Shown here in pieces: positions 3,641-38,550 of a stretch of 64,000 nt of DNA (within the stretch, counting starts at the first letter, position 1; each line of letters begins with the position of its first letter). The notes beneath the pieces are model-generated. The model saw nothing but the letters and a program-made list of their open reading frames with translations. It was not told the origin of the DNA and did not search any database. Source of the DNA: Trypanosoma brucei. Lineage: Eukaryota. The stretch is from the NCBI GenBank assembly GCA_000002445.1, contig CM000207.1, positions 736,001-800,000 of the forward strand. The letters are read 5' to 3'. The translations under genes and the position numbers were made by a program.

Positions 3641-3690
3641 TACCTCCTTTCCTTTCCCTTCCCCCTCCCTTTTGCTCTTTCTTTGTTAAT
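3641..3690 (+). promoter_or_regulatory. Polypyrimidine tract, candidate trans-splicing and polyadenylation signal, upstream of ACS1
   Basis: A C/T run (tacctcctttcctttcccttccccctcccttttgctctttctttgtt) on the coding strand about 240 nt before the ATG, with AG dinucleotides downstream. Kinetoplastid polyY tracts direct spliced-leader addition. Confidence 0.4.
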
Positions 3691-3925
3691 TCATTAATAG
3701 GTAAGTTGCCGAATATTATTTGAACTACATTTTATAGACTTGACTAAACTGTTCAACAACCAGGAACAATAACAAACGCCCAACGACAGGAGGGGTATCC
3801 CAACAATACAAGGGGGAGGGTAAGGGGGGGGGAAAAAAACTTACTGAGGAGATCGTTTCAACAAACCAGGTAAACGAGAAGTGACGATAATTAAATATTA
3901 ATAGTAGTGTGGCAGTTGTGTTTCG

Positions 3926-9562: not shown

Positions 9563-10612
9563 TGAATGGTGCGGATCTCCATGGGGCGGTCTATTAATTG
9601 TGTTTGTGATGTTAATCAGTTCCTATTGTCCATCTGAATTGTCCTCTCTACACGTTCCATTATCTGTTTTCCGTCGGTCCAACTTCTTGATGCTGGTGGC
9701 GACAGCTTGCACGACAGGTTGTAAGCGTTAAGGCATGCAGGGTTGGTTTTGCAGCACGGGGGAGGGTATTGAAATACGTAATTTTTCCTAGTTGATACAT
9801 TTGATTACACTTGGTTTTGTTGTAGTGACTCTGTTTATTTACTTATTTTTCGCATAGGGGGATCCGATAGTGCAGACAACACGGTGTGCAAGTCGAGAAA
9901 CCCAAGTTACACCTGTATGCTCGTTTTCACGGGGTTGTGTATGCGTGAGTGCTATTTATTGGGTAACAGAGTCACCCTGCTGTTGCCTTTTTTCTTCCGC
10001 TTCGGGTGTTGGGGATTCTTCTTTTATCATTATTATTGTTATCCTCTTTTTTACTTGTTTTTAATTTTTGGCTTACGGTCAGGAGATTACTTACCCCCCT
10101 CCCCATCCAGTGGTTTTCCACATTGTCTAACTCACCGTAGGCCTTAGGCGCTTTGACATGATTTTCCATTCGCCCCTCCTGTGCACTTATGTCCGCGTCC
10201 CGTTACTTCTCACTCGTGCACTGTGCCTCGGTGCGATTCTTCCATTGTTTGTTTTTATTGACTACAAGTTTTTGTGGAAGGTTTCTTATAACATAAGCAA
10301 CTTAGGAATCACTGAGACGCATTGGCACACATTTCCCACCGCATCCCTCCCCTTGCTGTAGTCTTGTGTTGTTACGAGTGCCAGATGTTTGACCATCCAA
10401 TATGTACGACAATGACATCTGACCGCGGCACGTACGGGATCTGAAGGGGATTATCATGACAGCTGCAACCCGTAAATGTATGCTCGCTGATCCTGGTGCG
10501 CGTGTCTGTATGTGTGTAGGTTGCGCATCCTCAATAGTTACGAACCTTCATATTTCCCATTTCTTGTCATCTCGCGAGCACAAACCCTGGAGGCCACAGG
10601 TTAACCGCGTAC

Positions 10613-10698
10613 CTGTTATTGCTTTTTTCCTCTGTTTTCCTTCTGTTCTTCCCATCTTCGTCACGCCCCTCCTCATTTCTCTATCTTGCTTGCTACGA
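10613..10698 (+). promoter_or_regulatory. Polypyrimidine tract, candidate trans-splicing signal, upstream of ACS3; an identical copy at about 14112-14197 lies upstream of ACS4
   Basis: A long C/T run (gcttttttcctctgttttccttctgttcttcccatcttcgtcacgcccctcctcatttctctatcttgcttgc) on the coding strand about 250 nt before the ATG. Confidence 0.45.
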
Positions 10699-10941
10699 TA
10701 GCCATACCAAAAGACTGTAAAGCACAACCGCTCTGCAACAAGCACTAAGGGAAGAAAGACAGGTGATTGTGGATACGGTTGAACCTGAAGGGAAGGGAAG
10801 CAATCGGGACAGCAGTGGTGCGCGCCACGTGTGTTTGTGGGAGGAAGGCTTGTTAAGGTTGGCGAAATCATCTTAAAAGCCACCATTCACACCCAGTAAG
10901 TATTGTACTTCATAGGAAGCCTTTGCTTTTAAGATCCGATA

Positions 10942-13068
10942 TTGAGAAGTGGGGGCACCATGGGGGGATGTGTGATTTCCGTCATGGACTACATGAACAA
11001 TCGCTCTGAGGTTGAGAATGAGCATGTGAAAAAATTTCGTGCGCTTGGCAAGGTTGCTGTCCCTGTGCCCGGCAGCGAAACTTCTGATTGCTCTCCCATC
11101 TACCGTCTCGTAACTGACGACGGCAAAGATATTGAAGAGGTGCGGCGGGAGTGGTACGAGGGTGAGTGCCTTCCGCAGCGCTTCGCAGCCCTTTGCAAGC
11201 GTCAACCCAAGCAGCGTGCCCTTGCCTACCGCCCAGTGGATCGGGTAGAAAAGGCTGTAATTAAGGATCTGCACACGGGAACAGAGAAGACAGTGAACGT
11301 AACACATTTCAAGGAGACGAAATACCTTGACTACGGCACCTTCTGGGACTACATCGAGTCGTTTGGGCGAGGTCTCGTGGAGTTGGGTATTTCACCAAAC
11401 TCCCGAGTCGCCATATACGAGGAGACGCGGTGGGAGTGGTTGGCAACAATTTACGGTATCTGGTCGCAGAATATGGTTGCCACCACAGTGTACGCCAATC
11501 TTGGCGAAGATGCGCTCGCGTATGCCCTCCGGGAAACAGGCTGCAAGGGGATCATTTGCAATGCGAAGAATGTGAGTGTTGTTATTAAATTCATGAGTGA
11601 AGGCATCACACCTTCCGCACCCATCATCTACAATGGGAGCCTTCCTGCCTCTGTCGACCAGGAGGCCTGCCATCTCGTATCGTGGGAGGAAGTTGTGAAA
11701 CTTGGTCGTGAGGCCCGTGACCGGCTTCCGTTGAACAACTCTGGAAGGGCAGATGACCTTGCTCTCATCATGTATACGAGTGGTACGACGGGGGACCCCA
11801 AAGGTGTCATTCACACACATGGCTCACTGATGTCGGGAGTTCATGCACTTGACCACAGGCTGAACGAGGTAATGGGTTGCCATGTTAAAGGGGAAACATA
11901 CTGCGCTTACCTGCCTCTTGCCCACATTTTGGAGTTAGGAGTCGTTAACATCTTCATTGCCCGCGGTGCACTGATATGCTTTGGAAGCCCCTTTACACTG
12001 ACTGACCTCACTGCAAGGCCCCGTGGTGACCTAGCAGAGTACAATCCATCACTTTTAATTGGCGTACCGCGCATATACGATACGCTGAAGAAGGCAATTC
12101 AGGCGAAACTGCCGGCTCCTGGCACGTTCAAGCGTCGTGCTTTTGACCATGCCTTCCAGAGCCGCTTGCGTGCCTTTAAGGATGGCAAAGATTCGCCGTA
12201 CTGGGATGCGAAGGTGTTTGCAGCTACCCGTGCCGTTTTGGGGAAGGGAATACGAATTGCTTTGTCCGGCGGAGGCCCTCTGAGTACAGCCACACAAGAT
12301 TTTGTTAATGTGGTTCTGGCTCGCACGATTCAAGGTTGGGGCCTCACGGAGACGGTGTGTGTCGGAGGTGTTCAGTTTACAGGCGATATTGAAACCGGTG
12401 CTGTTGGACCCCCGCTGCTATCGGAGGAAGTGAAACTACTGGACGTGGAAGGATACAAACACACCGATGAGCCCGATCCTCGTGGGGAAATTCTTCTGCG
12501 TGGTCCATTCCTCTTCAAAGGGTACTACAAGCAGGAAGAACTAACCAAGGAGGTGCTTGATGAAGATGGTTGGTTTCATACGGGTGACGTTGGCAGCATC
12601 GACCCCAATGGAACCCTTCGCATCATTGGCCGCGTGAAGGCCTTGGCAAAGAATGTTCTTGGAGAGTATGTTGCCATGGAAGCTTTGGAATCCATGTATG
12701 CACACAACTCGCTGAGCATGCCCAACGGTGTTTGTGTCCTCGTGCATCCTGACAGACCGTACATTTGTGCGCTTGTTCTTACTGATGAAGCGAAGGTTGT
12801 TGCGTTCACGAGGGAGCATGGATTGAAAGGTAAATACCCTGAAGTTCTGCAGGACCCCGAGTTTCAGAAGAAGGCTACAGCATCATTTCAGGAGACGGCT
12901 CGTGCATCTGATCGACAGAAGTTTGAGATTGTACGTCACGTACGCCTACTGAGTGATGAGTGGACTCCTGAAAATGGTGCGCTGACGGCTGTGGGAAAAC
13001 TGAAGCGACGCGTCATCGATGAGAGGTACACTGATATCATAGCACCACTTTTCGTGGAGGAGTGCTGA
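10942..13068 (+). CDS. ACS3: Long-chain fatty acyl-CoA synthetase, third copy
   Basis: 708 aa with the same AMP-binding motifs. Over 95 percent identical to copy 4 by eye; the differences sit in a few short patches (for example GCHVKGETYCAYLPLAHILELGVVNIFIARG). Confidence 0.85.
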   Translation: MRSGGTMGGCVISVMDYMNNRSEVENEHVKKFRALGKVAVPVPGSETSDCSPIYRLVTDDGKDIEEVRREWYEGECLPQRFAALCKRQPKQRALAYRPVDRVEKAVIKDLHTGTEKTVNVTHFKETKYLDYGTFWDYIESFGRGLVELGISPNSRVAIYEETRWEWLATIYGIWSQNMVATTVYANLGEDALAYALRETGCKGIICNAKNVSVVIKFMSEGITPSAPIIYNGSLPASVDQEACHLVSWEEVVKLGREARDRLPLNNSGRADDLALIMYTSGTTGDPKGVIHTHGSLMSGVHALDHRLNEVMGCHVKGETYCAYLPLAHILELGVVNIFIARGALICFGSPFTLTDLTARPRGDLAEYNPSLLIGVPRIYDTLKKAIQAKLPAPGTFKRRAFDHAFQSRLRAFKDGKDSPYWDAKVFAATRAVLGKGIRIALSGGGPLSTATQDFVNVVLARTIQGWGLTETVCVGGVQFTGDIETGAVGPPLLSEEVKLLDVEGYKHTDEPDPRGEILLRGPFLFKGYYKQEELTKEVLDEDGWFHTGDVGSIDPNGTLRIIGRVKALAKNVLGEYVAMEALESMYAHNSLSMPNGVCVLVHPDRPYICALVLTDEAKVVAFTREHGLKGKYPEVLQDPEFQKKATASFQETARASDRQKFEIVRHVRLLSDEWTPENGALTAVGKLKRRVIDERYTDIIAPLFVEEC

Positions 13069-14440
13069 TGAATGGTGCGGATCTCCATGGGGCGGTCTAT
13101 TAATTGTGTTTGTGATGTTAATCAGTTCCTATTGTCCATCTGAATTGTCCTCTCTACACGTTCCATTATCTGTTTTCCGTCGGTCCAACTTCTTGATGCT
13201 GGTGGCGACAGCTTGCACGACAGGTTGTAAGCGTTAAGGCATGCAGGGTTGGTTTTGCAGCACGGGGGAGGGTATTGAAATACGTAATTTTTCCTAGTTG
13301 ATACATTTGATTACACTTGGTTTTGTTGTAGTGACTCTGTTTATTGCTTTGGCTGTGCTTGTTATATTGTGCAGACAACACGGTGTGCAAGTCGAGAAAC
13401 CCAAGTTACACCTGTATGCTCGTTTTCACGGGGTTGTGTATGCGTGAGTGCTATTTATTGGGTAACAGAGTCACCCTGCTGTTGCCTTTTTTCTTCCGCT
13501 TCGGGTGTTGGGGATTCTTCTTTTATCATTATTATTGTTATCCTCTTTTTTACTTGTTTTTAATTTTTGGCTTACGGTCAGGAGATTACTTACCCCCCTC
13601 CCCATCCAGTGGTTTTCCACATTGTCTAACTCACCGTAGGCCTTAGGCGCTTTGACATGATTTTCCATTCGCCCCTCCTGTGCACTTATGTCCGCGTCCC
13701 GTTACTTCTCACTCGTGCACTGTGCCTCGGTGCGATTCTTCCATTGTTTGTTTTTATTGACTACAAGTTTTTGTGGAAGGTTTCTTATAACATAAGCAAC
13801 TTAGGAATCACTGAGACGCATTGGCACACATTTCCCACCGCATCCCTCCCCTTGCTGTAGTCTTGTGTTGTTACGAGTGCCAGATGTTTGACCATCCAAT
13901 ATGTACGACAATGACATCTGACCGCGGCACGTACGGGATCTGAAGGGGATTATCATGACAGCTGCAACCCGTAAATGTATGCTCGCTGATCCTGGTGCGC
14001 GTGTCTGTATGTGTGTAGGTTGCGCATCCTCAATAGTTACGAACCTTCATATTTCCCATTTCTTGTCATCTCGCGAGCACAAACCCTGGAGGCCACAGGT
14101 TAACCGCGTACCTGTTATTGCTTTTTTCCTCTGTTTTCCTTCTGTTCTTCCTATCTTCGTCACGCCCCTCCTCATTTCTCTATCTTGCTTGCTACGATAG
14201 CCATACCAAAAGACTGTAAAGCACAACCGCTCTGCAACAAGCACTAAGGGAAGAAAGACAGGTGATTGTGGATACGGTTGAACCTGAAGGGAAGGGAAGC
14301 AATCGGGACAGCAGTGGTGCGCGCCACGTGTGTTTGTGGGAGGAAGGCTTGTTAAGGTTGGCGAAATCATCTTAAAAGCCACCATTCACACCCAGTAAGT
14401 ATTGTACTTCATAGGAAGCCTTTGCTTTTAAGATCCGATA

Positions 14441-16567
14441 TTGAGAAGTGGGGGCACCATGGGGGGATGTGTGATTTCCGTCATGGACTACATGAACAAT
14501 CGCTCTGAGGTTGAGAATGAGCATGTGAAAAAATTTCGTGCGCTTGGCAAGGTTGCTGTCCCTGTGCCCGGCAGCGAAACTTCTGATTGCTCTCCCATCT
14601 ACCGTCTCGTAACTGACGACGGCAAAGATATTGAAGAGGTGCGGCGGGAGTGGTACGAGGGTGAGTGCCTTCCGCAGCGCTTCGCAGCCCTTTGCAAGCG
14701 TCAACCCAAGCAGCGTGCCCTTGCCTACCGCCCAGTGGATCGGGTAGAAAAGGCTGTAATTAAGGATCTGCACACGGGAACAGAAAAGATGATGAACGTA
14801 ACACATTTCAAGGAGACGAAATACCTTGACTACGGCACCTTCTGGGACTACATCGAGTCGTTTGGGCGAGGTCTCGTGGAGTTGGGTATTTCACCAAGCT
14901 CCCGAGTCGCCATATACGAGGAGACGCGGTGGGAGTGGTTGGCAACAATTTACGGTATCTGGTCGCAGAATATGGTTGCCACCACAGTGTACGCCAATCT
15001 TGGGGAAGATGCGCTCGCGTATGCCCTCCGGGAAACAGGCTGCAAGGGGATCATTTGCAATGCGAAGAATGTGAGTGTTGTTATTAAATTCATGAGTGAA
15101 GGCATCACACCTTCCGCACCCATCATCTACAATGGGAGCCTTCCTGCCTCTGTCGACCAGGAGGCCTGCCATCTCGTATCGTGGGAGGAAGTTGTGAAAC
15201 TTGGTCGTGAGGCCCGTGACCGGCTTCCGTTGAACAACTCTGGAAGGGCAGATGACCTTGCTCTCATCATGTATACGAGTGGTACGACGGGGGACCCCAA
15301 AGGTGTCATTCACACACATGGCTCACTGATGTCGGGAGTTCATGCACTTGACCACAGGCTGAATGCTGTAATGGGACCGTTGCGGGATGGAGAAACTTAC
15401 CTGTCTTACCTGCCTCTTGCCCACATTTTGGAGTTAGGAGTGCTAAGCGTATTCATTGCCCGCGGTGCACTGATATGCTTTGGAAGCCCCTTTACACTGA
15501 CTGACCTCACTGCAAGGCCCCGTGGTGACCTAGCAGAGTACAATCCATCACTTTTAATTGGCGTACCGCGCATATACGATACGCTGAAGAAGGCAATTCA
15601 GGCGAAACTGCCGGCTCCTGGCACGTTCAAGCGTCGTGCTTTTGACCATGCCTTCCAGAGCCGCTTGCGTGCCTTTAAGGATGGCAAAGATTCGCCGTAC
15701 TGGGATGCGAAGGTGTTTGCAGCTACCCGTGCCGTTTTGGGGAAGAATATGTACATGGTTTTGTCCGGCGGAGGCCCTCTGAGTACAGCCACACAAGATT
15801 TCCTCAATGTTGCAGTCGTTCGTATAATTCAAGGTTGGGGCCTCACGGAGACGGTGTGTGTCGGAGGTGTTCAACTTACAGGCGATATTGAAACCGGTGC
15901 TGTTGGACCCCCGCTGCTATCGGAGGAAGTGAAACTACTGGACGTGGAAGGATACAAACACACCGATGAGCCCGATCCTCGTGGGGAAATTCTTCTGCGT
16001 GGTCCATTCCTCTTCAAAGGGTACTACAAGCAGGAAGAACTAACCAAGGAGGCAATAGATGAGGATGGTTGGTTTCATACGGGTGACGTTGGCAGCATCG
16101 GCCCCAATGGAACCCTTCGCATCATTGGCCGCGTGAAGGCCTTGGCAAAGAATGTTCTTGGAGAGTATGTTGCCATGGAGACGTTGGAATCCATGTATGC
16201 ACACAACTCGCTGAGCATGCCCAACGGTGTTTGTGTCCTCGTGCATCCTGACAGACCGTACATTTGTGCGCTTGTTCTTACTGATGAAGCGAAGGTTGTT
16301 GCGTTCACGAGGGAGCACGGATTGAAAGGTAAATACCCTGAAGTTCTGCAGGACCCCGAGTTTCAGAAGAAGGCTACAGCATCATTTCAGGAGACGGCTC
16401 GTGCATCTGATCGACAGAAGTTTGAGATTGTACGTCACGTACGCCTACTGAGTGATGAGTGGACTCCTGAAAATGGTGTGCTGACGGCCGCAGGCAAACT
16501 GAAGCGACGCGTCATCGATGAGAAGTACACTGATACTATTGTGTCACTTTTCGTGGAGGAGTGCTGA
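14441..16567 (+). CDS. ACS4: Long-chain fatty acyl-CoA synthetase, fourth copy
   Basis: 708 aa. Its N-terminus is identical to copy 3, with variant patches GPLRDGETYLSYLPLAHILELGVLSVFIARG and LGKNMYMVLSGGG. Its last ~30 residues are identical to copy 2 rather than copy 3. Confidence 0.85.
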   Translation: MRSGGTMGGCVISVMDYMNNRSEVENEHVKKFRALGKVAVPVPGSETSDCSPIYRLVTDDGKDIEEVRREWYEGECLPQRFAALCKRQPKQRALAYRPVDRVEKAVIKDLHTGTEKMMNVTHFKETKYLDYGTFWDYIESFGRGLVELGISPSSRVAIYEETRWEWLATIYGIWSQNMVATTVYANLGEDALAYALRETGCKGIICNAKNVSVVIKFMSEGITPSAPIIYNGSLPASVDQEACHLVSWEEVVKLGREARDRLPLNNSGRADDLALIMYTSGTTGDPKGVIHTHGSLMSGVHALDHRLNAVMGPLRDGETYLSYLPLAHILELGVLSVFIARGALICFGSPFTLTDLTARPRGDLAEYNPSLLIGVPRIYDTLKKAIQAKLPAPGTFKRRAFDHAFQSRLRAFKDGKDSPYWDAKVFAATRAVLGKNMYMVLSGGGPLSTATQDFLNVAVVRIIQGWGLTETVCVGGVQLTGDIETGAVGPPLLSEEVKLLDVEGYKHTDEPDPRGEILLRGPFLFKGYYKQEELTKEAIDEDGWFHTGDVGSIGPNGTLRIIGRVKALAKNVLGEYVAMETLESMYAHNSLSMPNGVCVLVHPDRPYICALVLTDEAKVVAFTREHGLKGKYPEVLQDPEFQKKATASFQETARASDRQKFEIVRHVRLLSDEWTPENGVLTAAGKLKRRVIDEKYTDTIVSLFVEEC

Positions 16568-20000: not shown

Positions 20001-20753
20001 ATGGCACACTGTTGCTTTCTCATCTATCCCCTTGCCAAAGTTGCGGATGAATCATTTCTACAACTACTGTTTGATGACTCAGTTAAGCGCTCTGCGTTTC
20101 TCGGGTATCCTCCCCGTCGTTTCGCCATAGTGGAGCTTGAAGAAAGTCAAAACGAGGCTGTTTTGCGCGCAATCGGGGCAAGAGATGACGATGGCCGCGT
20201 GGAGGCGCGTGAAGATAACGCTGATACACCGTTTGTGGATCTCTTCACACGCACTGGAGCGAAAAAAGGGACGGATCGTAATGAGCCAATAGGACTTCGG
20301 ATGGGCTGTATTCCCCACTTGTCCCAGGTTCGGTTTCGTAGGACGTATTTGCGGGTGATCGTGAGCCCGGTTACCATTGATGAGTTATTTGGTTGTGTTC
20401 AGAAGGATTCTAATCATGTCAAAAAGGAAAAGCGGTCACTGAAAAGGTCGCGTCACACTGATGAGGATGCGGGACCGTGGGTCCCTCGGTGGCCCGTTGC
20501 GAATGGCGATCCAACACTAGCTGGTAGAGTTGAGGTGGTTTCCATGACAGGTGCTTCTCGTGCTGGTTTGAGTGGTGACCCGGAGGACGAAAGGTATCGT
20601 GAACCCTACGCTGAATGTAGTGGTGGTCCTGTTTGTAATATGAGTCCACCCAAAACCTTTTTATCTGACGATAGTGCTGGTGACGCGGCTGGGCGCCGTG
20701 CGCTTGATGTCAGTGTGCAGAATCTCATTAGAGAGTTGGGGTTCGATAAATAA
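20001..20753 (+). CDS. Hypothetical protein, 250 aa
   Basis: An ORF with coding-like composition that is co-directional with the cluster. The true start may be an internal Met. Confidence 0.4.
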   Translation: MAHCCFLIYPLAKVADESFLQLLFDDSVKRSAFLGYPPRRFAIVELEESQNEAVLRAIGARDDDGRVEAREDNADTPFVDLFTRTGAKKGTDRNEPIGLRMGCIPHLSQVRFRRTYLRVIVSPVTIDELFGCVQKDSNHVKKEKRSLKRSRHTDEDAGPWVPRWPVANGDPTLAGRVEVVSMTGASRAGLSGDPEDERYREPYAECSGGPVCNMSPPKTFLSDDSAGDAAGRRALDVSVQNLIRELGFDK

Positions 20754-23421: not shown

Positions 23422-24405
23422 ATGCTTCCATGTCCGTCGTTCTCTACCACAACTCCAAGGTTTGACATGGACACCTATCTGGGTCGTACTTTTTACTTTT
23501 TTTCCACCATCAACCCACTGTTGTGCTTTGAGACGTCAAACTCATTGAAGCGCCATCAGGAGCTGCTCAATCGTGTGGCAGCGGGAGAGGAAGGGGTTGC
23601 AAGCGACAGACAACTGTGGAAAGCACGCACTGCAATAGAAATATGCGTGCATCCCACCACTAAGGAAGTTATATTTCCACCTTACAGGATGTGTGCTTTC
23701 CTTCCTGTGAATAGTTTTATCGTACCCTTCATGATGTCACCGACGACCATTGCAAGCCCTGCGCTCACAATATTCATTCAGTGGTTTAACCAGAGCTATA
23801 ACTGCGCGGTGAATTATGCAAATCGCTCCTCCGATAAGCAACCGATGTCGGAACTATCTAAGGCGTACGTCGCCGCTGTTGGTGTTTCCTGCGCCGGAGC
23901 ACTAGGTGCTACAGCAATGCTGAAGAAAGTAAAAGGTGGCACATTGAAAGCCACAGCTGTTCGTGCGGGGTTACCTTTCGTGGCGGTATCTGCGGCGGCA
24001 ATTGTGAATCTTTCTCTAATGCGTAAGAATGAGTGGATTCCATCAGGCACTGGCCTACAAGTTGTTGACGAGGATGGTGAGGTGCGGGGCAGCAGTCGTG
24101 TTGCCGGCATGCAAAGTCTCATGATGTGTTCCGTCACGCGTGTTACATGGAACCTTATTTCCATGGTGTTGCCGCTTTTGATGATGCGACCACTCCTTGC
24201 CCGCTGTGCAGCTGTTCGGGCTCGACCTGTTGTGTATGAAACAGCACTGCAGATTGCCAGCCTCGGCGTCGGTGTTCCGCTTGCATTGGGTGCATTTAGC
24301 ACAACAGTGAGTGTACCTGCGAATCGGTTGGAGCCGGAACTTCGTGGGTTGAAGCGAAAGGACGGCTCGCCTGTTGAAATATTCACGTATTACAAGGGTT
24401 TGTAG
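23422..24405 (+). CDS. Sideroflexin-like mitochondrial carrier (tricarboxylate carrier / Mtc family)
   Basis: Contains FIQWFNQSYNCAVNYANRS, which matches the sideroflexin signature N-Q-S-x-N-x-x-x-N-Y-x-N-R. Several predicted transmembrane stretches are present. The true start may be the downstream Met (MDTYLG). Confidence 0.65.
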   Translation: MLPCPSFSTTTPRFDMDTYLGRTFYFFSTINPLLCFETSNSLKRHQELLNRVAAGEEGVASDRQLWKARTAIEICVHPTTKEVIFPPYRMCAFLPVNSFIVPFMMSPTTIASPALTIFIQWFNQSYNCAVNYANRSSDKQPMSELSKAYVAAVGVSCAGALGATAMLKKVKGGTLKATAVRAGLPFVAVSAAAIVNLSLMRKNEWIPSGTGLQVVDEDGEVRGSSRVAGMQSLMMCSVTRVTWNLISMVLPLLMMRPLLARCAAVRARPVVYETALQIASLGVGVPLALGAFSTTVSVPANRLEPELRGLKRKDGSPVEIFTYYKGL

Positions 24406-25177
24406 TTGGTGGGGATAATTTTTCCCGTCGCGTTTGCATGTGCATGTGTGTATATGTGTGTGTGCGTGTGCGTGAAGGGACGCTGCTGGCGTGCCACTGT
24501 GGCATTATAATTTTGTTCTGTGCTGGGAATGCGCCGAATGCGTTAGAAGATGACTCAGTTAAAGCAGAATGGGGGGAAAATTTAAAAAAATGAGGAGGGA
24601 AAGAAAGAAAGAGAAGAGAATCATTATCGTACGTGGAGGTTTGAGTTTTTTTTCTTTATTGTTCCTTATCATTCCATGAAAACGAAATCATGAGGTTTAG
24701 CGGTTTTACCCCCTACCCCTACTCCCATTCTCATCTCTTTCTCTTTGCCTCCCCTTTTCCTTTTTTCCTTTTACCTATTTTTTTTTTGTATAGGCATGTT
24801 TCGGTAAAAGCAGGGGGATGGTGGCACTTTTACTTTCCTTCGACGCGAGGCCGACTGAACTTTCCACTATGATGAAGCGGGAAGATGCGGTAAAGGGTTA
24901 AAAAACGGAGTGAACGATTTTTATTAATTTGTTTAAAAAGAATGAAAAGAGGAGGTATTAACGAATTGTGTGGATAACACGAAGCGTTTTTTTAATAAAA
25001 GGAAGAAAGAAAGGGAAAGCACCTTGTTGTGCTGTATCCTCTTCTCCACATTTTTAATGATGACTGCGTGGTTTTTCTTTCTTCCTTCTCTCTTTTTATT
25101 CCTCTCAGAAGTATGTCTACCCCCGAAAATATATAAATATCCAAATATGCAGGTGTGTCTGTATTTATGTTTATGTT

Positions 25178-25180
<3 letters not shown>

Positions 25181-25210
<30 letters not shown>
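25181..25210. repeat. (AT)15 microsatellite
   Basis: Direct read. Similar (TA)n blocks occur near 19445-19468, 25646-25666, 26349-26375, 45106-45125 and 63318-63350. Confidence 0.9.
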
Positions 25211-25214
<4 letters not shown>

Positions 25215-27642
25215 TTATTTATTCATATGTATGAATTTGTTTTTTTATTGATTTGCTCTATGCACCTGCTGTCTCTTTTGTTCATTCCCTTTGGATTCAC
25301 CGCACCACTTTGGCTACTGGTACGTCGCCGCGACGCATACAACTAAGAGAAAAACAAAATAAAAATATACGGCACCATGGCGAAAAAAAGGTGCACTGAC
25401 TCAGCAACACATGTACACGCATAATCAGACGCACACAAAATACACTTAAATGATGTGGACGACCATTTCGTGGGATCGTAGAGGACAATATACGCAAAAT
25501 AGAAACAATTAATGGGGAGGAGAAAATGTAGTCGACATTTTACGAAAAGGTGGGATTTATTTTCAGTTGTCGGGCTGTTAAATATATGCAGCTTCCACAC
25601 GACCCTCTCCCCTTGTGGGACTTGTCTCTGGATTTCACTGCCTCTTTCAATATATATATATATATATGCTTGTGTGTTTATGTGTTTTATTTTAATCGTT
25701 ATTATTTTCATCACTGTGTGTTGTGCTTTGCGACTCACACGTGGTTTTATTTGTTCCTTTTCTTACTTACTTTTTTTTTCTTGAGTTTTGTTATTATTAT
25801 TATTATTTTAATTTTTTTTTTCGTTGTTCCTCTCTCTGTTTTTTTTTTGTACTGCAGAAAACGGTAGTGAGGAATACAGTGCAAAGGATGGGTGTATATC
25901 GCATGTGACCATTTGGCGTTTTTTTTCTTTTTATTCTTTTCTTCAACATATCACTTATTTATAACGTCATGCAGGGGTAATTTTGTTTGATTCGGTTTTA
26001 TTTATGTATTTGCTTTCCTTTTTTCTTTTTTTCTTTTTTAAGGAAAAAAAATTTCCATTTCCATTTGTTTTTGTTACTTTTTTTTTTTTTCCAGACACCC
26101 TGTCTTCTTTTTTTTTTTTCATATTTTTGCTACTGTGGCAGTTTTGCTTTTTTTTCTTTTGTGAGGGAAAGGGAGAGATTCTCAGGGTTCGAAGAGAAAC
26201 ACAAGGAGCGATGAAAATGTGTGCGGCTGCGTTTTGAAGGTTTTGTTACACTTTTGTCCTCTTCTTAGTGGTTCAATCACTGAAAATAAAATAGTCCCCC
26301 CCCCAGCGCATACTCAAATATAAATATAAACAAATATAAACAAATATAAGTATATATATATATATATATATATTTATTTATTTATATACGCTAATTTCAG
26401 GTGACAATTGTCTAGAAGAAACAGACAGGTATATGTTCATATTTATTTATATTTATGTGTATGCGCAGTGGAGGTGTAATAAACTTATCTATACTGTCCA
26501 CGGGAAATGAAAGTGTGAGGGTACACTTCTTTCTTTCCTTCCCTTCGGTTTGTGTATTGTTTTCGTTTTTTCTTTTTTTTTAAAAAAAAAGAAAAGAAAG
26601 GGGGAAACATGTTGAATGTTCGATGGCTTATTATTTTTCACTCCTCGTTTGGTCTGTTCATTTGAAGGGCTTGCAAGCCAAGTTTGTGATCGCTTTTGTG
26701 TGTTTGTGTGGGTGTGTATTCATGTGCGTTCAGCAAATATTTTGTTTTTCTTTCTTTTTTTATTTTTGTTCATTTATCGGTTACGGGAAAACAAAGGTGT
26801 TGAATAGAAGGTGACAGAGGCAAAAAGCGATGAAACGATGATATCAATCCCCCCTTGCTCTTCCCAATTATTAAGAAAAAGGGAAGGGAAACTTAAAACA
26901 AAACAAACAAACACTGATTTAATCGCTAACCTCGCATCAAACGCATCCTAGGTGTGTAGCAAGTGTATCTGCACCTCTATAAAATGTTTTAAAGTATTTT
27001 TTTAAATTTAAAATAAAAAAGTGTCTTCATTGCATTTTATTTTGTTTTATCTCTTCGCTTTTCTTCTATTTTATATTAGGGTGCAGCGGCAAGGAGGAAC
27101 ACCACCACCACCACTTCCTCCACCAGGTCTCAGCAGCAACGGTAGCGTGGGAGAGAAATTGGGGGACGGGGAAGGAAAGAAGGAAACTTAAGCAAAAAAA
27201 AGAAAAGAAAAGAAAGAAAAGAAGTGAAGTGAAGTGAAGGCCATAAAGGCACAATTTATTGTACAAGAACGGAAGAAATAAAAAGCGGCGAGGGCTGTAA
27301 ACCCTCAGGGCGATAACCACAATCGCCAGCATCATATTAACACATACGTGGCCCGGTTGGCTGTGCGGTACGGCTCATTGGCGGGCCAAAGTGTCTGTGA
27401 GCAAAAGGAAAAAAATAATAAATTAATTTAATCAGTGGGAAACGCCGGGTCGTGCAGGTGTGTCCGAGGTTGAGTAAATCAAGGTTTTGAGACAGTGTCG
27501 GTGGACAGTGATTGGAAAGAAAAAAGGAGGAGAGAAAAAAAAAACGGCAATCAACAGGGGAAAGAAAGAGAGAGGGAAGGAAGGAAAAGAGGGAGGGGGG
27601 ATCTTCACAAGAGAAAAGTTAAAGCCATAGAACCAATAAAAC

Positions 27643-30288
27643 ATGACCGAATCTGAGAAAGCCCGTACCGTGACAGGGAGGGGACTCGTGGATTTACCTC
27701 AGCGGTTTAGTCAAGTGGACATAACGTACGCGGCATCCACATCCAACCAAACATCCGCTCGAACGGCTGAACCAACAGCTCCGATTCTTACTGACATTGA
27801 GATTACTGAAAAGGCTAGTCTGGTAAATGATGTCAAAGGCGCTTACGCCTCAGATGGGTATCCGATATGTTGCTCAGGAAGCAAAACGGGTGGTGCCCTA
27901 TACGGTGCTTTCGTGGAGCTTCGGAACCCTTCCCTGCATGGTGTAACGTTGCCACCAGCGGAAACTATCGTTGTTGCCAGCACTCCCAGCGACCCCGTTA
28001 AGCACTTCACTTCGGGGGGTGAAGGTGGCTCTCATTCAACTAATGGATCCGATGCTGATGGTGTGACTGCGGCGAGTAATATAGTTGACCCTCGCGCAGC
28101 CATCCTGCGTATTGTTTGGAAGCGTGGATCACATCTGCTTAATCCACATGCAGCAGAGCACTTGGATCTCCCAATGAAGGAAACACCCACCAAGACTGAG
28201 ATGTCGACATCAAGTGTAGTGCTTCCAAAACTTCCATGCTACGGGATCGAACGGCACCTGCGGCGGTTTCCCGATGGCGTGCACAGTGTGGACACTTCTC
28301 CCCGACTGAATGAACTTCTCTTGGATATTCCACCGGGTTCAGTGGGGGATACTGTGAAAACAGCACCACAAGAGCACGAGAAAAAGGCAGTTGACGATTT
28401 CCCTGATGGGGCAACCAGGGGTGCAAAGAAACGTACAAACAGTAATGGCAGCAGGAAAAGCAGAAGGAACAATAGATCGAAGGGCAATAATGCAGATATG
28501 GATGGAGATGACACATCTCCAGAGGATGGTGGCGGACGGAAGGGGGCGCCGTTACGAGAAAAGGAGCCCATGGGAAATGCACCTGTACAACTAACACTAA
28601 TAACAGCATGCAGTTTTAACCACCTCACTTTGTATGCTGTACGTCACCAGGCAGGAAATGTATTGGCGTTCGTACCACTGCAGACCATCATCGCCTCTGT
28701 AACGACGCGAAAAATTACCAGTCATTGTGTGTTTTTGCTGTCCGTTGATACATACGAGTCCTATGATTCCCCGGGTATGTGTACCTCTGGTGCTTCACCA
28801 GTATTGCACGGGGCGGAGAAGAAGGAACCGAAGAGAGGGACCGTGAAGCAAAAGCAAGGCCTTGGCGGTCAAGCGCTCAAAGGAGAAGGTGACAGCACTC
28901 CGCCATGTGAAGGGGGAAAGGAATTTTTGTTTGAACCCGTTCAAGTAGGTGGGGAGAGTTCCGGTGGTGGGGGAGTCATGCGCGTGGCGACCGTCTTTCT
29001 TGCGGTGGAGCCCTACTTGTTGCTGGGTAACCAGAGTGGGGATATTATGCTCTTCAGCGTTTTCAAGGGAAAAGTGGTGCAGCGGCTCAACCCTTCTGGA
29101 CTTCCCAGGTCAGACTCTTTCTTCAGAGGAAGCCAGGAAGATTCGACGGGGTCAAAGCAACTAGTAGGTGCAACTGTCTCGTGCATTGTGGAAATAAGCT
29201 GCGGTGCGGAGAAACGATTGACACGTTTAATTAGCAATGCGATTGCATCCCGTGTACGGGGCAGAGATCGTTTTACAGCTCCTTCTGTTGGAGCTGCGGG
29301 AACACCACCTTCTGTGTTTGCCGTCGGTTTTGATGACGGTCAGGTGCTGCTTGTGGACGTGACGGCTGAAGGAGCCTGCTTAAGTAAGCGTGTGAGCTCA
29401 TTCAGCGGGAATCCCATCCACGGGATCGCTATGCGGGCACCTCACTACTTTACAAGGGTATGGACTTCTCAGCAGTACATGAAGGGATATGAAAAGCAAC
29501 GCTCTCCCATATGCACGGTGTTTACACATGCGGATACCCTTACCTTCAACGAGGACGGTGCCATTGCCGCGGTATCTTCTAATGGCGGTGTCCTGCGTCT
29601 CCTGCGAGCACCCGAGATGGATGAGGAAGTGTGCCGATTGGCAACTCTTCACTGTGACACCGCAGGGGATTTCTTGTCTTTGCAGTGGATGTCAAGTTGT
29701 GTCGGTACAGCGCTTCTTCCTGATCTCCTCATCGCCACGAGCGAAGATGACAGTATTGGCGTTTACCAGTTTGTGCAGTCAAGGAATTGCACGACCAGCT
29801 TGGTTCGACAAGATGGTTTCACACCTGAGAGACCTAACTTTAATGCAAGTATGGATACTATACATGACAATATTACATTGATCTCACGGCGCTTCTTCCA
29901 TCACTCTTGGGTAGTTAATCTTACCACGATGCAGCGCCCCAACGGGAGTCTTCTGATCGCTACATCTTACGATGGTCGGAGTTCCTTCTGGCCAATCAGT
30001 TACGGCGGCACCACCGCCACTAATACTCCTGGCGGTTCACTCCCCCGCGGGGGAGGCTCTGAGGTGTCACTCCAAAAGTGCCTATCAGATTATCTTATAA
30101 GGGATATGGGTGCTAAGCTCCACAGTTTCGGGCACGTGTTTCCATCCCACCCAGCGGCGTCGTTTGTCCTTCACAAGGGCGACATATCGCGGTGCATCGT
30201 TGGTGGGGCTGGGAACAGTTACTTTATAGTTTCATTATGTTTGCAAGGGTTTGTGAAAGTATGGGAGGTGAAATGGAGTGGGGGATGA
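27643..30288 (+). CDS. Hypothetical protein, 881 aa, with WD40/beta-propeller-like repeats in the C-terminal half
   Basis: Blade-like motifs are present: GFDDGQVLLVDV, LLIATSEDDSIGVYQF, LLIATSYDGRSSFWPI, and C-terminal GFVKVWEV. The N-terminal half is low-complexity and basic (KKRTNSNGSRKSRRNNRSKG). Confidence 0.5.
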   Translation: MTESEKARTVTGRGLVDLPQRFSQVDITYAASTSNQTSARTAEPTAPILTDIEITEKASLVNDVKGAYASDGYPICCSGSKTGGALYGAFVELRNPSLHGVTLPPAETIVVASTPSDPVKHFTSGGEGGSHSTNGSDADGVTAASNIVDPRAAILRIVWKRGSHLLNPHAAEHLDLPMKETPTKTEMSTSSVVLPKLPCYGIERHLRRFPDGVHSVDTSPRLNELLLDIPPGSVGDTVKTAPQEHEKKAVDDFPDGATRGAKKRTNSNGSRKSRRNNRSKGNNADMDGDDTSPEDGGGRKGAPLREKEPMGNAPVQLTLITACSFNHLTLYAVRHQAGNVLAFVPLQTIIASVTTRKITSHCVFLLSVDTYESYDSPGMCTSGASPVLHGAEKKEPKRGTVKQKQGLGGQALKGEGDSTPPCEGGKEFLFEPVQVGGESSGGGGVMRVATVFLAVEPYLLLGNQSGDIMLFSVFKGKVVQRLNPSGLPRSDSFFRGSQEDSTGSKQLVGATVSCIVEISCGAEKRLTRLISNAIASRVRGRDRFTAPSVGAAGTPPSVFAVGFDDGQVLLVDVTAEGACLSKRVSSFSGNPIHGIAMRAPHYFTRVWTSQQYMKGYEKQRSPICTVFTHADTLTFNEDGAIAAVSSNGGVLRLLRAPEMDEEVCRLATLHCDTAGDFLSLQWMSSCVGTALLPDLLIATSEDDSIGVYQFVQSRNCTTSLVRQDGFTPERPNFNASMDTIHDNITLISRRFFHHSWVVNLTTMQRPNGSLLIATSYDGRSSFWPISYGGTTATNTPGGSLPRGGGSEVSLQKCLSDYLIRDMGAKLHSFGHVFPSHPAASFVLHKGDISRCIVGGAGNSYFIVSLCLQGFVKVWEVKWSGG

Positions 30289-30769: not shown

Positions 30770-32179
30770 ATGCAACTCCAAAGGTTGGGTGCTCCACTAC
30801 TTAAAAGGCTTGTGGGGGGATGCATACGCCAATCAACGGCGCCGATTATGCCATGTGTTGTTGTTAGTGGCTCGGGTGGTTTTTTGACTCCCGTGCGTAC
30901 TTACATGCCGCTCCCCAATGATCAAAGTGACTTCTCACCGTACATCGAGATTGATTTGCCAAGTGAAAGCCGCATCCAATCACTGCATAAGAGCGGACTT
31001 GCGGCACAGGAGTGGGTTGCATGTGAAAAAGTGCATGGGACAAACTTTGGTATCTACTTAATTAACCAGGGAGACCACGAGGTTGTGAGGTTTGCAAAGC
31101 GTAGTGGCATCATGGACCCAAATGAGAATTTCTTTGGTTACCACATCCTTATCGACGAGTTCACAGCACAAATTCGTATTCTAAATGACCTATTGAAACA
31201 AAAATATGGACTGAGCCGTGTTGGGCGTTTGGTGCTCAATGGAGAACTGTTTGGTGCCAAGTATAAGCACCCACTCGTTCCAAAGAGTGAGAAGTGGTGC
31301 ACGCTACCAAACGGGAAGAAGTTCCCTATCGCCGGTGTTCAAATACAGAGGGAACCCTTTCCACAATATAGTCCAGAGCTCCATTTCTTTGCATTTGACA
31401 TTAAGTACAGTGTGAGTGGCGCGGAAGAGGACTTCGTGCTGCTTGGTTACGACGAGTTCGTCGAGTTTTCTTCCAAAGTGCCCAACCTGTTATACGCGCG
31501 GGCTCTTGTTCGTGGGACGTTGGATGAGTGTTTAGCATTTGATGTGGAGAATTTCATGACACCGCTGCCCGCGTTGCTTGGCTTAGGTAATTACCCCCTT
31601 GAGGGGAATTTGGCAGAGGGTGTGGTCATTCGTCACGTACGTCGCGGGGATCCGGCGGTAGAGAAACACAACGTCTCGACTATAATCAAACTCCGCTGCT
31701 CCAGTTTCATGGAGTTGAAGCACCCCGGTAAGCAGAAGGAACTGAAGGAGACATTTATCGACACGGTACGCTCCGGAGCTCTGCGGCGGGTGCGAGGGAA
31801 TGTGACCGTTATCTCAGACTCCATGTTGCCTCAGGTGGAGGCAGCGGCCAATGATCTGTTACTAAACAATGTAAGCGATGGCAGGTTGAGCAATGTGCTA
31901 TCGAAGATTGGTCGTGAACCTCTGCTGTCTGGGGAGGTATCGCAGGTTGATGTGGCGCTTATGCTTGCTAAGGACGCACTGAAAGACTTTCTCAAGGAGG
32001 TAGATAGTTTGGTGTTGAACACAACCCTTGCTTTTCGCAAGTTGCTAATCACCAATGTCTACTTCGAGTCTAAGCGGTTAGTGGAGCAAAAGTGGAAGGA
32101 ACTCATGCAGGAAGAAGCAGCCGCGCAGTCAGAGGCTATTCCACCACTTTCACCCGCTGCCCCCACAAAGGGCGAATGA
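30770..32179 (+). CDS. REL1: Kinetoplastid RNA editing ligase 1 (mitochondrial editosome RNA ligase)
   Basis: 469 aa. The N-terminus is a basic/hydrophobic presequence. Nucleotidyltransferase motif I is CEKVHGTNFGIYL, and I counted its lysine as residue 87 from the first Met, which matches the catalytic K87 of T. brucei REL1. The length equals REL1 and the C-terminal region is the KREPA2-interacting part. Confidence 0.85.
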   Translation: MQLQRLGAPLLKRLVGGCIRQSTAPIMPCVVVSGSGGFLTPVRTYMPLPNDQSDFSPYIEIDLPSESRIQSLHKSGLAAQEWVACEKVHGTNFGIYLINQGDHEVVRFAKRSGIMDPNENFFGYHILIDEFTAQIRILNDLLKQKYGLSRVGRLVLNGELFGAKYKHPLVPKSEKWCTLPNGKKFPIAGVQIQREPFPQYSPELHFFAFDIKYSVSGAEEDFVLLGYDEFVEFSSKVPNLLYARALVRGTLDECLAFDVENFMTPLPALLGLGNYPLEGNLAEGVVIRHVRRGDPAVEKHNVSTIIKLRCSSFMELKHPGKQKELKETFIDTVRSGALRRVRGNVTVISDSMLPQVEAAANDLLLNNVSDGRLSNVLSKIGREPLLSGEVSQVDVALMLAKDALKDFLKEVDSLVLNTTLAFRKLLITNVYFESKRLVEQKWKELMQEEAAAQSEAIPPLSPAAPTKGE

Positions 32180-36881: not shown

Positions 36882-37413
36882 GTGTGCCTGCGTTACCCTT
36901 TTCTGTTCCTTTTCTTTTTCTTTTCAAAGACTGCTTGTTTTGTTGCTCCGCTTGATTTTTAATTTCGAACGAAGAAGAGCGTGCACTGTTGACTGTTTCC
37001 GCCGATACGCCCCCCCCCTACTATATCTGTTTCTTCATTTGCATTTGTTGTACTCTGTTTCCACGCGTATCGCGCCACATTTAATCCTATGGTCGCAGGT
37101 GCCTCCTTGCTTTACTTTCTCACCTCTGTGCACGTTTAATTTCTTTGTGTTTGTAACCCCTATGTTGCCACTTTTACACCAAATGACGGGATCCCCCACG
37201 CCGATTCCGGCTCTTTCCCCACCCTCGGTTGGGGCGCCCTATCCATATTTCCGTTCCTACCTCTTCTCCCTTTCCAAACGACTGCGCCTGAGATGACATA
37301 CATCTGCAGCAAAAGTAAAGGACACCGCTTAGCTATTTGAACGAGGGAGGATACAGGGAACACGTTTCGTGGAGAGGGGGAGGCAAGAGTGTGCTCGTTT
37401 GGAGCATAAAGTG

Positions 37414-38550
37414 ATGAAAATTACCTGTACGGATGAAAGTGGCAATGTGTACTCAGCGGAATTGGATCCAACCGCGATGGTTGAGGACCTTTCCGTTCTT
37501 GTAGAGGTGGAGATTGGTATACCCGTGGAGGAACAGTTGCTTATGGCACCTACCGGTGCGATATTGCGTCTGGATGAAACGTTTGGGGCCCAGGGTATAA
37601 CAACTGACTGTTGTGTCACGGTGAGACGCCAGGTGTTGGGAGGAGGCTTGAAACGGCCAGCGGAAGAGCGACCAGACAGGATACCGGAAGTGCAGGCCAG
37701 TGAAGAACGATCTCACATACTGGAGCTGTACGCAACCGAACTGATGTCTGACCAGGATCAGTTGCAGCAGCTCGTGTCGCCGGAGTTTGACGAAACAGAC
37801 CCGGCCATACAGAGCAGGATATATGAGGAAATTAGTAAGCGCAACGTGGAAGAGAACTTAGCAAATGCGCTTGAGTTTGCACCAGAGGCGTTCACCCGTG
37901 TAAGCATGCTCCACGTCACGGTTGAGATTAATAAGGTAAAGGTGAAGGCCTTGGTTGATTGCGGCGCGCAAACGTCCGTCGTGAGTGCCGCCACCGCCGA
38001 GCGCTGCGGCATCAATTGGTTGGTTGACAAGAGGGCAGTGGGTACCGTTCACGGTGTTGGTGAGCAGCGTTCGCTGGGTCGAATTCATCTTACGCAGGCA
38101 AACCTAGGTGGGTTGTTTATTCCCATCTCTCTAGTTGTACTAGAAAGTGAAACTTTTGATCTCATTATTGGACTAGACCAGATGAAAAAGCACCGCATGA
38201 TCATTGACCTCAAGGACGATTGCCTGCGTGTGGGTGGTACCGCTATACCATTTCTCAGTGACTCAGAAGTATCGGAAGAACCGCATAGGGGGACACCATT
38301 TGTGCTTGGAGGTGGCGATGGCAACGAGGACAACAATGCCGCAGATGTTCCGACGGCTGGCGCAAATCAGGGCACGGCAGCGAAAAGAAGTACGGCACCT
38401 TCCGGCCCTAACATCAGCTCCGCTGAAAAGGAGCAGGCAATCGAGACATTCGTTTCTCTAACCCACCTCGAAAGACAGCAGGCCATTGCACTCCTCGAGG
38501 CTGTGAACTGGAACCCACATGCGGCCATGTCACTTCTGATGGAGGAGTGA
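37414..38550 (+). CDS. DDI1: Ddi1-like protein (DNA-damage-inducible 1 homologue): ubiquitin-like domain, retropepsin-type aspartyl protease domain, UBA domain
   Basis: The N-terminus MKITCTDESGNVYSAELDP is a UBL. The protease core VKALVDCGAQTSVVSAATAERCGI aligns with the human DDI2 block [24 protein letters not shown], with Cys in place of Ser in the D-S/T-G-A motif. The C-terminal LERQQAIALLEAVNWNPHAAMSLLME is UBA-like. An in-frame ATG at 37369 lies 15 codons upstream; I chose the Met at the start of the UBL. Confidence 0.8.
   Translation: MKITCTDESGNVYSAELDPTAMVEDLSVLVEVEIGIPVEEQLLMAPTGAILRLDETFGAQGITTDCCVTVRRQVLGGGLKRPAEERPDRIPEVQASEERSHILELYATELMSDQDQLQQLVSPEFDETDPAIQSRIYEEISKRNVEENLANALEFAPEAFTRVSMLHVTVEINKVKVKALVDCGAQTSVVSAATAERCGINWLVDKRAVGTVHGVGEQRSLGRIHLTQANLGGLFIPISLVVLESETFDLIIGLDQMKKHRMIIDLKDDCLRVGGTAIPFLSDSEVSEEPHRGTPFVLGGGDGNEDNNAADVPTAGANQGTAAKRSTAPSGPNISSAEKEQAIETFVSLTHLERQQAIALLEAVNWNPHAAMSLLMEE

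What the first reader, a model, noticed from the sequence alone, without database searches (positions are those of the whole stretch)
37414..38550. Ddi1-like retropepsin with a D-C-G-A active-site motif
The protease core aligns residue-for-residue with human DDI2, but the canonical D-S/T-G-A signature reads VDCGAQ. The catalytic Asp is intact, so the protein is probably an active homodimeric aspartyl protease. A Cys next to the catalytic Asp could alter flap hydrogen bonding or confer redox sensitivity. Ddi1 of trypanosomatids has been discussed as the off-target of HIV protease inhibitors, which makes active-site variants worth noting.
Basis: partly seen in the sequence, partly recalled or inferred. 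Interest (0 to 1): 0.5.

Follow-up and report, generated by a model that had tools for sequence, protein, structure and literature searches.

The report
Trypanosome Ddi1 protease, Asp-Cys-Gly-Ala motif
This is the already annotated Ddi1-like ubiquitin-shuttle aspartyl protease of Trypanosoma brucei; the cysteine beside its catalytic aspartate is real and inherited, but it is a rare, recurrent and probably conservative replacement of the usual serine, not a sign of a new kind of enzyme.

Summary
Window 37414-38550 (+) encodes a 378-aa protein reading V-D-C-G-A-Q at residues 181-186 (Cys183 = TGC, 37960-37962). It is identical to the annotated T. brucei brucei TREU927 "DDI1-like protein". It has the full Ddi1 layout: ubiquitin-like domain, helical region, retropepsin domain, disordered linker, UBA domain.

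The Cys is not a sequencing error. It is present in T. b. gambiense, T. equiperdum, T. congolense and T. grayi. T. vivax has D-T-G-T. T. theileri, T. melophagium, T. cruzi, T. rangeli, T. conorhini and Leishmania have D-S-G-A. Synteny shows that the three orthologues whose contigs have flanks (T. grayi, T. vivax, T. theileri) are true orthologues.

Across about 280 Ddi1 homologues this column holds only Ser, Thr or Cys. An unbiased top-150 sample has Cys in 4. D-C-G-A also recurs in at least four unrelated metagenomic Ddi1s.

The position after the catalytic Asp makes the "fireman's grip" at the dimer interface, not flap contacts.

My best reading is an active homodimeric protease whose grip uses a thiol instead of a hydroxyl. 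This is a near-neutral variant. A redox-switch role is not excluded but has no support. Interest is low.

The parts
37414..38550 (+). Complete coding sequence of the T. brucei Ddi1-like protein (378 aa plus stop)
   Evidence: ORF list and translation. Exact identity to XP_803743.1 of T. b. brucei TREU927.
37414..37629 (+). N-terminal ubiquitin-like (beta-grasp) domain, aa 1-72
   Evidence: AF2 model pLDDT 92-95 with beta-grasp secondary structure. Foldseek matches to ubiquitin/NEDD8 with target TM about 0.9. Weak sequence hits to ubiquitin. Not detected by Pfam in this species.
37696..37878 (+). Helical region preceding the protease domain, aa 95-155 (position of the Ddi1 helical domain)
   Evidence: Two long predicted helices, 95-119 and 130-155. 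The second aligns with the helix preceding the RVP domain in the DDI2 and yeast Ddi1 structures.
37882..38268 (+). Retropepsin-like (RVP) protease domain, aa 157-285
   Evidence: PF09668 at E = 6.8e-40. PDB Ddi1 RVP structures at 1e-36 to 1e-38. Model superposes on L. major Ddi1 RVP 5YQ8 with target TM 0.93 and rmsd 1.4 A.
37954..37971 (+). Active-site loop V-D-C-G-A-Q (aa 181-186); catalytic Asp182 at 37957-37959, variant Cys183 (TGC) at 37960-37962
   Evidence: Sequence read directly. Column statistics: Ser 258, Thr 14, Cys 8 of 280.
38281..38406 (+). Disordered linker, aa 290-331
   Evidence: pLDDT below 50. Poorly alignable between species.
38419..38544 (+). C-terminal UBA domain, aa 336-377
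   Evidence: Pfam UBA_4 PF14555 at E = 6.2e-07, residues 340-374. Three-helix bundle with pLDDT about 90.

Best explanation
The gene encodes the single-copy Ddi1 orthologue of Trypanosoma brucei. It is a UBL-helical-RVP-UBA ubiquitin-shuttle protein whose retropepsin domain dimerises to form one aspartyl-protease active site from two Asp182 residues. The Cys at D+1 occupies the 'fireman's grip' position. There its thiol most likely replaces the Ser/Thr hydroxyl in the reciprocal hydrogen bonds between the two active-site loops. The enzyme would therefore stay dimeric and catalytically competent, perhaps with a somewhat looser dimer. The substitution is one nucleotide away from the TCC member of the ancestral TCN Ser codon family (TCC to TGC) and behaves as a tolerated, near-neutral variant. 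What is shown: identity, domain architecture, fold, orthology, conservation of all other catalytic-core residues, and the phylogenetic spread of Cys. What is inferred: that the thiol makes the grip, that the protein dimerises, and that it is active.
For: 1) Identity and family: exact match to the annotated TREU927 DDI1-like protein; PF09668 at 6.8e-40 and UBA; Ddi1 RVP crystal structures are the best PDB hits; AF2 model with pLDDT 90-98 over the RVP superposes on L. major Ddi1 at target TM 0.93.
2) Not an error: Cys is present in T. b. brucei, T. b. gambiense, T. equiperdum, T. congolense and T. grayi, with a TGC codon in both T. brucei and T. grayi.
3) Orthology: the order RabGAP-TBC gene, then Ddi1, then a gene of 421-454 aa (T. 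grayi's, at 327 aa, is cut by the contig end) is shared by the window, T. grayi, T. vivax and T. theileri.
4) Constraint: across 280 homologues the column holds only Ser (258), Thr (14) or Cys (8), all small side chains able to hydrogen-bond. All 13 invariant columns of the 137-sequence alignment are kept in T. brucei: L166, A179, D182, G184, Q186, A195, L203, G214, G222, H225, G253, L254, D255.
5) Recurrence: D-C-G-A also occurs in P0148, P0196, P0209/P0228 and P0221. Their nearest relatives, apart from one another (P0209, P0228 and P0221), are non-kinetoplastid D-S-G-A Ddi1s.
6) The D+1 residue is the fireman's-grip residue, and Ser and Thr are interchangeable there (PMC7072860).
7) The gene is functional in vivo: T. 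brucei DDI1-like is reported essential in procyclic forms (PMC6329875).
8) From my own knowledge, not retrievable here: Strisovsky et al. 2000, Protein Sci 9:1631, reported that HIV-1 protease T26C keeps near wild-type activity whereas T26A is monomeric and inactive.
Against: No biochemical data exist for the T. brucei enzyme. A 2013 review states that no aspartic peptidase of African trypanosomes had been studied (PMC3837538). A thiol is a weaker hydrogen-bond donor and acceptor than a hydroxyl, so dimer stability could be noticeably lower. Trypanosoma RVP domains are unusually divergent: T. brucei deviates at 7 of 45 columns that are at least 90% conserved, against a median of 1 and a 95th percentile of 5. 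Some relaxation or change of function in the genus therefore cannot be excluded. The dimer could not be modelled and no coordinates were available to measure the geometry.
Confidence: 0.7

Rival explanations
1. Cys183 is an adaptive redox or thiol switch. In the monomer the cysteine is exposed. Oxidation, trypanothionylation or an inter-subunit disulfide would then block or lock dimerisation, making protease activity respond to oxidative stress.
For: The residue sits on the dimer dyad next to the catalytic Asp (PMC7072860). Cys has been kept across the T. brucei / T. congolense split and in T. grayi. The reference list of PMC7072860 cites a study of reversible oxidative regulation of retroviral protease dimerisation through cysteines (reference 58).
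Against: The distribution is patchy. T. vivax has Thr and T. cruzi, T. rangeli, T. theileri and Leishmania have Ser. It does not track life style or host, and unrelated eukaryotes also carry Cys. This pattern is what a neutral, nearly isosteric swap would give. The apparent co-variation at positions 190, 264 and 278 is confounded by shared ancestry and by the word-seeded search. No geometry could be computed.
Confidence: 0.12
2. The protease function is decaying in Trypanosoma. The protein works only as a UBL/UBA ubiquitin shuttle, and the Ser-to-Cys change is one symptom of relaxed constraint on a pseudo-protease.
For: Trypanosoma RVP domains deviate at 4-13 of the 45 highly conserved columns, against 0-1 in Leishmania. 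The T. vivax orthologue also changes D-S-G-A to D-T-G-T and has lost the UBA domain.
Against: The catalytic Asp, the Gly-Ala-Gln of the loop, the flap G-V-G / G-R-I-H and the G-L-D helix are all retained. The RVP is the best conserved part of the protein among trypanosomes. The variant column admits only Ser, Thr or Cys and never a residue unable to make the grip.
Confidence: 0.12
3. The Cys codon is a sequencing or assembly error in this window.
For: None beyond the rarity of the residue at this position.
Against: The same residue appears in three Trypanozoon protein sequences held under six or more accessions from T. b. brucei, T. b. gambiense and T. equiperdum, in T. congolense IL3000 and in T. 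grayi.
Confidence: 0.01

Closest known systems
Leishmania major Ddi1-like protein (RVP domain structures 5YQ8 / 5YS4; MEROPS family A28)
   Same: Same family and same UBL-RVP-UBA layout. The RVP is 49-51% identical, and the model superposes at target TM 0.93 and rmsd 1.4 A. The fireman's grip is described as conserved in that structure (PMC6120238).
   Different: Leishmania has D-S-G-A and shows 0-1 deviations at highly conserved RVP columns. T. brucei has D-C-G-A and 7 deviations. The Leishmania protein has been reported proteolytically active and linked to HIV protease inhibitors; the T. brucei protein has not been studied.
Human DDI2 / yeast Ddi1 (4RGH, 2I1A, 4Z2Z)
   Same: The retropepsin core and the preceding helix align over about 145 residues at E about 1e-35. 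The ubiquitin-shuttle architecture is shared.
   Different: Human DDI2 reads D-S-G-A and yeast Ddi1 D-T-G-A. DDI2 lacks a UBA domain (my own knowledge). The Pfam Ddi1 helical-domain model PF24669 hits the plant and metazoan homologues in the precomputed lists but no Trypanosoma orthologue, and was not matched by this protein.
HIV-1 protease Thr26 'fireman's grip' and its T26S/T26C/T26A mutants
   Same: Equivalent position (D25-T26-G27-A28 against D182-C183-G184-A185) and the same homodimeric retropepsin fold. The engineered T26C enzyme is the laboratory analogue of this natural variant.
   Different: It is a viral enzyme with Thr in nature, and the Cys form is artificial. The T26C result rests on my recollection of Strisovsky et al. 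2000; the paper is not in the held library.

Membership tests
Ddi1 / MEROPS A28 retropepsin-like ubiquitin shuttle | Retropepsin-like domain matching the Ddi1-type Asp_protease profile (PF09668) | tested here: met
   E = 6.8e-40, 136 bits against a cutoff of 26, full profile 1-109. Best PDB hits are all Ddi1 RVP domains. Fold match at target TM 0.93.
Ddi1 / MEROPS A28 retropepsin-like ubiquitin shuttle | Catalytic Asp in the Asp-x-Gly-Ala active-site loop, plus the flap G-V-G and the G-L-D helix motif | tested here: met
   D182, G184, A185, Q186, G214-V215-G216, G222-R223-I224-H225 and G253-L254-D255 are all present.
Ddi1 / MEROPS A28 retropepsin-like ubiquitin shuttle | Residue after the catalytic Asp able to make the fireman's-grip hydrogen bonds (Ser/Thr in the textbook signature) | tested here: inconclusive
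   The residue is Cys, not Ser or Thr. The column holds only Ser, Thr or Cys in 280 homologues, and syntenic orthologues alternate between the three. Ser/Thr is therefore a consensus, not a condition of membership. Whether the thiol forms the grip cannot be tested with these tools.
Ddi1 / MEROPS A28 retropepsin-like ubiquitin shuttle | N-terminal ubiquitin-like domain | tested here: met
   Not found by Pfam. However, the model has a confident beta-grasp at residues 1-72 that matches ubiquitin/NEDD8 at target TM about 0.9, and phmmer gives weak ubiquitin hits.
Ddi1 / MEROPS A28 retropepsin-like ubiquitin shuttle | C-terminal UBA domain (present in many but not all Ddi1s) | tested here: met
   UBA_4 at E = 6.2e-07, residues 340-374. 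Three-helix bundle at 336-377 with pLDDT about 90.
Ddi1 / MEROPS A28 retropepsin-like ubiquitin shuttle | Orthology with characterised trypanosomatid Ddi1 genes (conserved genomic position) | tested here: met
   The upstream RabGAP-TBC gene and a downstream gene of 421-454 aa (T. grayi's is cut by the contig end) are shared with T. grayi, T. vivax and T. theileri. The protein is listed as A28 MER242469 for T. brucei in PMC3837538.
Ddi1 / MEROPS A28 retropepsin-like ubiquitin shuttle | Homodimerisation and Asp-dependent proteolysis | not testable with these tools
   Only a monomer could be predicted, and no coordinates were returned. No biochemical data for the T. brucei enzyme were found.

The most novel reading that the evidence does not exclude
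Cys183 at the dimer dyad is a selected thiol switch. Oxidation or trypanothionylation of the exposed monomer, or a Cys183-Cys183' disulfide, would couple Ddi1 dimerisation and protease activity to the parasite's redox state. It would also offer a covalent, parasite-selective handle at the active site, because the Ddi1/DDI2 structures from human, yeast, Leishmania, Toxoplasma and Cryptosporidium all have Ser or Thr at this position.
Probability: 0.1. Interest if true: 0.55.

Novelty: already known. Interest (0 to 1): 0.2.

Why it matters
The gene is an annotated member of a well-studied family, so nothing new is added at the level of what the system is. The small added value is a natural-history point. 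Surveys of retropepsin and Ddi active sites describe the grip residue as Ser or Thr only (PMC7072860). Here Cys is shown to be a third naturally occurring option, stable over trypanosome speciation and recurrent in other eukaryotes. That agrees with the old HIV-1 T26C mutagenesis result. Practically, anyone modelling or screening T. brucei Ddi1 as a drug target should know two things. The active-site loop carries a cysteine, a possible covalent handle and a possible source of redox artefacts in assays. And the side chain faces the dimer interface, not the substrate pockets, so it should not by itself change binding of HIV protease inhibitors (this last point is an inference from retropepsin structures).

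Tried and rejected
1) Sequencing error: rejected, because the same Cys appears in three Trypanozoon protein sequences from T. b. brucei, T. b. gambiense and T. equiperdum and in two other species.

2) 'Flap hydrogen bonding': rejected, because the D+1 residue is the fireman's-grip residue.

3) Literature search for the motif: 'DCGA' plus 'aspartic' returned only unrelated chemistry papers. 'T26C' plus 'protease' returned nothing relevant. The two key Protein Science papers (PMC2144712, PMC2366921) are not held, so the T26C evidence is from memory only.

4) Independent origin of Cys within Trypanosoma: this could not be settled. In an NJ tree of the protein the T. theileri and T. cruzi clades group together, but the position of T. 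grayi is unresolved. Two gains, or one old gain with one reversal, are about equally parsimonious on the gene tree. The published species tree, as I remember it, favours two gains.

5) Co-variation with Cys: Fisher tests picked out positions 190, 278 and 264. I discard these as evidence. The eight Cys-bearing sequences are not independent, and four of them were retrieved by a search seeded with words from the Cys-bearing queries.

6) Distances from Cys183 to its dyad mate and to the conserved Cys198 and Cys270: not computable, because no model coordinates are exposed.

7) T. congolense codon: no DNA on record for that protein.

Full report
**What is there**

The window is trypanosomatid DNA: every ORF of 200 aa or more lies on the + strand, in polycistronic style. 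The longest ORF over the finding runs 37369-38550 from a GTG. The first ATG, at 37414, gives a 378-aa protein. Its N-terminus lines up with those of its homologues. It is identical over its whole length to XP_803743.1/EAN76518.1, the 'DNA-damage inducible protein DDI1-like protein' of Trypanosoma brucei brucei TREU927, and to a T. equiperdum entry. It is 99% identical to the T. b. gambiense DAL972 protein.

The motif is as stated: residues 181-186 read V-D-C-G-A-Q. Asp182 is GAT at 37957-37959 and Cys183 is TGC at 37960-37962.

**Family and architecture**

- Pfam gives Asp_protease PF09668 over residues 157-265 (E = 6.8e-40). Weaker hits fall on related retropepsin models. A UBA-like domain lies at 340-374.
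- The best solved structures by sequence are all Ddi1 retropepsin domains: L. major 5YS4/5YQ8 (about 1e-37), human DDI2 4RGH (5.8e-36) and yeast Ddi1 2I1A/4Z2Z (about 1e-35). The alignment to L. major is ungapped; those to DDI2 and yeast Ddi1 have one short gap each.
- An AlphaFold2 model built on a 137-sequence alignment has mean pLDDT 82. It shows a confident beta-grasp at 1-72, long helices at 95-155, the retropepsin domain at about 160-285 (pLDDT 90-98), a disordered linker at 290-331, and a three-helix bundle at 336-377.
- Foldseek superposes the protease domain on L. major Ddi1 (5YQ8) at target TM 0.93 and rmsd 1.4 A. It superposes the N-terminal domain on ubiquitin at target TM about 0.9.

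This is the canonical UBL-helical-RVP-UBA Ddi1 layout.

**Is the Cys real and inherited?**

Yes. D-C-G-A-Q occurs in the following:
- three Trypanozoon protein sequences (T. b. brucei/T. equiperdum, T. b. gambiense, T. b. equiperdum), held under six or more accessions
- T. congolense IL3000
- T. grayi

DNA fetched for the orthologues gives these codons at the position:

| Species | Codon | Residue |
|---|---|---|
| T. brucei | TGC | Cys |
| T. grayi | TGC | Cys |
| T. vivax | ACT | Thr (motif D-T-G-T, two assemblies) |
| T. theileri | TCG | Ser |
| T. rangeli | TCC | Ser |
| unnamed Logan contig (L006) | TCT | Ser |

T. cruzi, T. cruzi marinkellei, T. conorhini and a second T. rangeli strain read D-S-G-A-Q, as does T. 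melophagium. The T. cruzi Asp is at residue 248, as in PMC6249910.

The genes are true orthologues, not paralogues, where flanks could be read. In the window and in T. grayi, T. vivax and T. theileri, the gene follows a RabGAP-TBC gene of about 1,370-1,400 aa and precedes a gene of 421-454 aa (T. grayi's, at 327 aa, is cut by the contig end).

Cys and Thr are each one nucleotide away from a member of the TCN Ser codon family.

**How unusual is it?**

An exhaustive HMMER search of 1.84 billion cluster representatives found 2,467 homologues, of which the best 150 could be read. In that unbiased sample D-C-G-A appears four times: three Trypanosoma and one unrelated metagenomic protein, P0148.

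A second search was deliberately seeded with the Cys-bearing domains. It pulled out four more Cys-bearing proteins: P0196, P0209, P0221 and P0228. The nearest relatives of the five non-trypanosome Cys bearers, apart from one another (P0209, P0228 and P0221), are non-kinetoplastid D-S-G-A Ddi1s, so the change has arisen several times.

Over 280 HMM-aligned homologues the column holds Ser 258, Thr 14, Cys 8 and nothing else. The Cys count is inflated by the seeded search. All 13 invariant columns of the 137-sequence alignment are kept in T. brucei.

Within Trypanosoma, an NJ tree of the protein groups the T. theileri and T. cruzi clades and leaves T. grayi unresolved. Cys was therefore gained either twice, or once early and then reverted. 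Either way it has been maintained through speciation.

**What the residue does**

In retropepsins the Ser/Thr of D-S/T-G-A makes the 'fireman's grip'. These are reciprocal hydrogen bonds between the two active-site loops at the dimer interface. Ser and Thr are interchangeable there, with Ser giving a looser dimer. A comparative study of retroviral and Ddi proteases describes the position in Ddi proteins as 'mainly Ser' or Thr and does not mention cysteine (PMC7072860). The grip is conserved in the L. major Ddi1 structure (PMC6120238).

From my own knowledge, Strisovsky et al. (Protein Sci 2000, 9:1631) reported that HIV-1 protease T26C retains near wild-type activity whereas T26A is monomeric and inactive. 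I could not retrieve that paper here, so this point is recalled, not verified.

The strict Ser/Thr/Cys restriction of the column fits this picture. So does the report that T. brucei DDI1-like is essential in procyclic cells (PMC6329875). The most likely reading is an active homodimeric protease with a thiol-based grip, that is, a tolerated conservative variant.

**Rival explanations**

- *Redox switch.* This is structurally conceivable because the residue lies on the dyad. But the patchy distribution looks neutral: Cys, Ser and Thr occur among closely related parasites and Cys also occurs in unrelated eukaryotes. The apparent co-varying positions are confounded by ancestry and by search bias.
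- *Decaying pseudo-protease.* Some support comes from the unusual divergence of Trypanosoma RVP domains. T. brucei deviates at 7 of 45 highly conserved columns, against a median of 1 and 0-1 in Leishmania. T. vivax has D-T-G-T and has lost the UBA domain. Against this, all catalytic and structural hallmarks remain.
- *Sequencing error.* Excluded.

**Novelty and verdict**

The gene is already annotated and is listed in MEROPS family A28 for T. brucei (PMC3837538). I found no paper in the held library that mentions the D-C-G-A variant. A 2013 review says no aspartic peptidase of African trypanosomes had been studied.

The finding is a correct observation of a minor active-site variant in a known protein. 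The variant is rare (about 3% of representatives), recurrent and probably conservative. Interest is low unless the cysteine proves redox-active or can be exploited for covalent inhibition.

Noticed in passing
L002/L003 4001-4951 (T. vivax orthologue, protein P0025): The T. vivax Ddi1 orthologue is only 316 aa in two independent assemblies. It reads D-T-G-T-Q instead of D-S-G-A-Q, deviates at 13 of 45 highly conserved RVP columns, and has no UBA domain in any downstream reading frame. It is the most derived Ddi1 of the genus.
   Followed up: partly
window 3926-16567 (+): Four tandem genes of about 700 aa (3926-6022, 7436-9562, 10942-13068, 14441-16567), spaced about 3.5 kb apart. The three scanned all match the AMP-binding enzyme family PF00501 (E 1e-69 to 1e-75); the fourth was not scanned. 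They look like a tandem array of acyl-CoA-synthetase-like genes.
   Followed up: partly
window 30770-32179 (+): A 469-aa ORF with an RNA_ligase domain (PF09414, 3e-18) and a weak T4 Rnl2 C-terminal domain, two genes upstream of Ddi1. It is presumably a kinetoplastid RNA-editing ligase.
   Followed up: no
window 166-918 and 20001-20753 (+): Two ORFs of exactly 250 aa each with no Pfam match, about 20 kb apart and flanking the AMP-binding gene array. They may be duplicated genes; I did not compare them.
   Followed up: no
window 1-4000 and 24001-28000: Markedly lower G+C (0.32-0.40) than the rest of the window (about 0.45-0.53). These stretches largely fall between ORFs of 200 aa or more.
   Followed up: no
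window 37882-38268 (RVP domain) and its Trypanosoma orthologues: The whole genus Trypanosoma has an unusually divergent Ddi1 protease domain: 4-13 deviations at columns that are at least 90% conserved, against 0-1 in Leishmania and a median of 1 overall. One of them is L257M, which by my own mapping of the two sequences corresponds to HIV-1 protease Leu90.
   Followed up: partly
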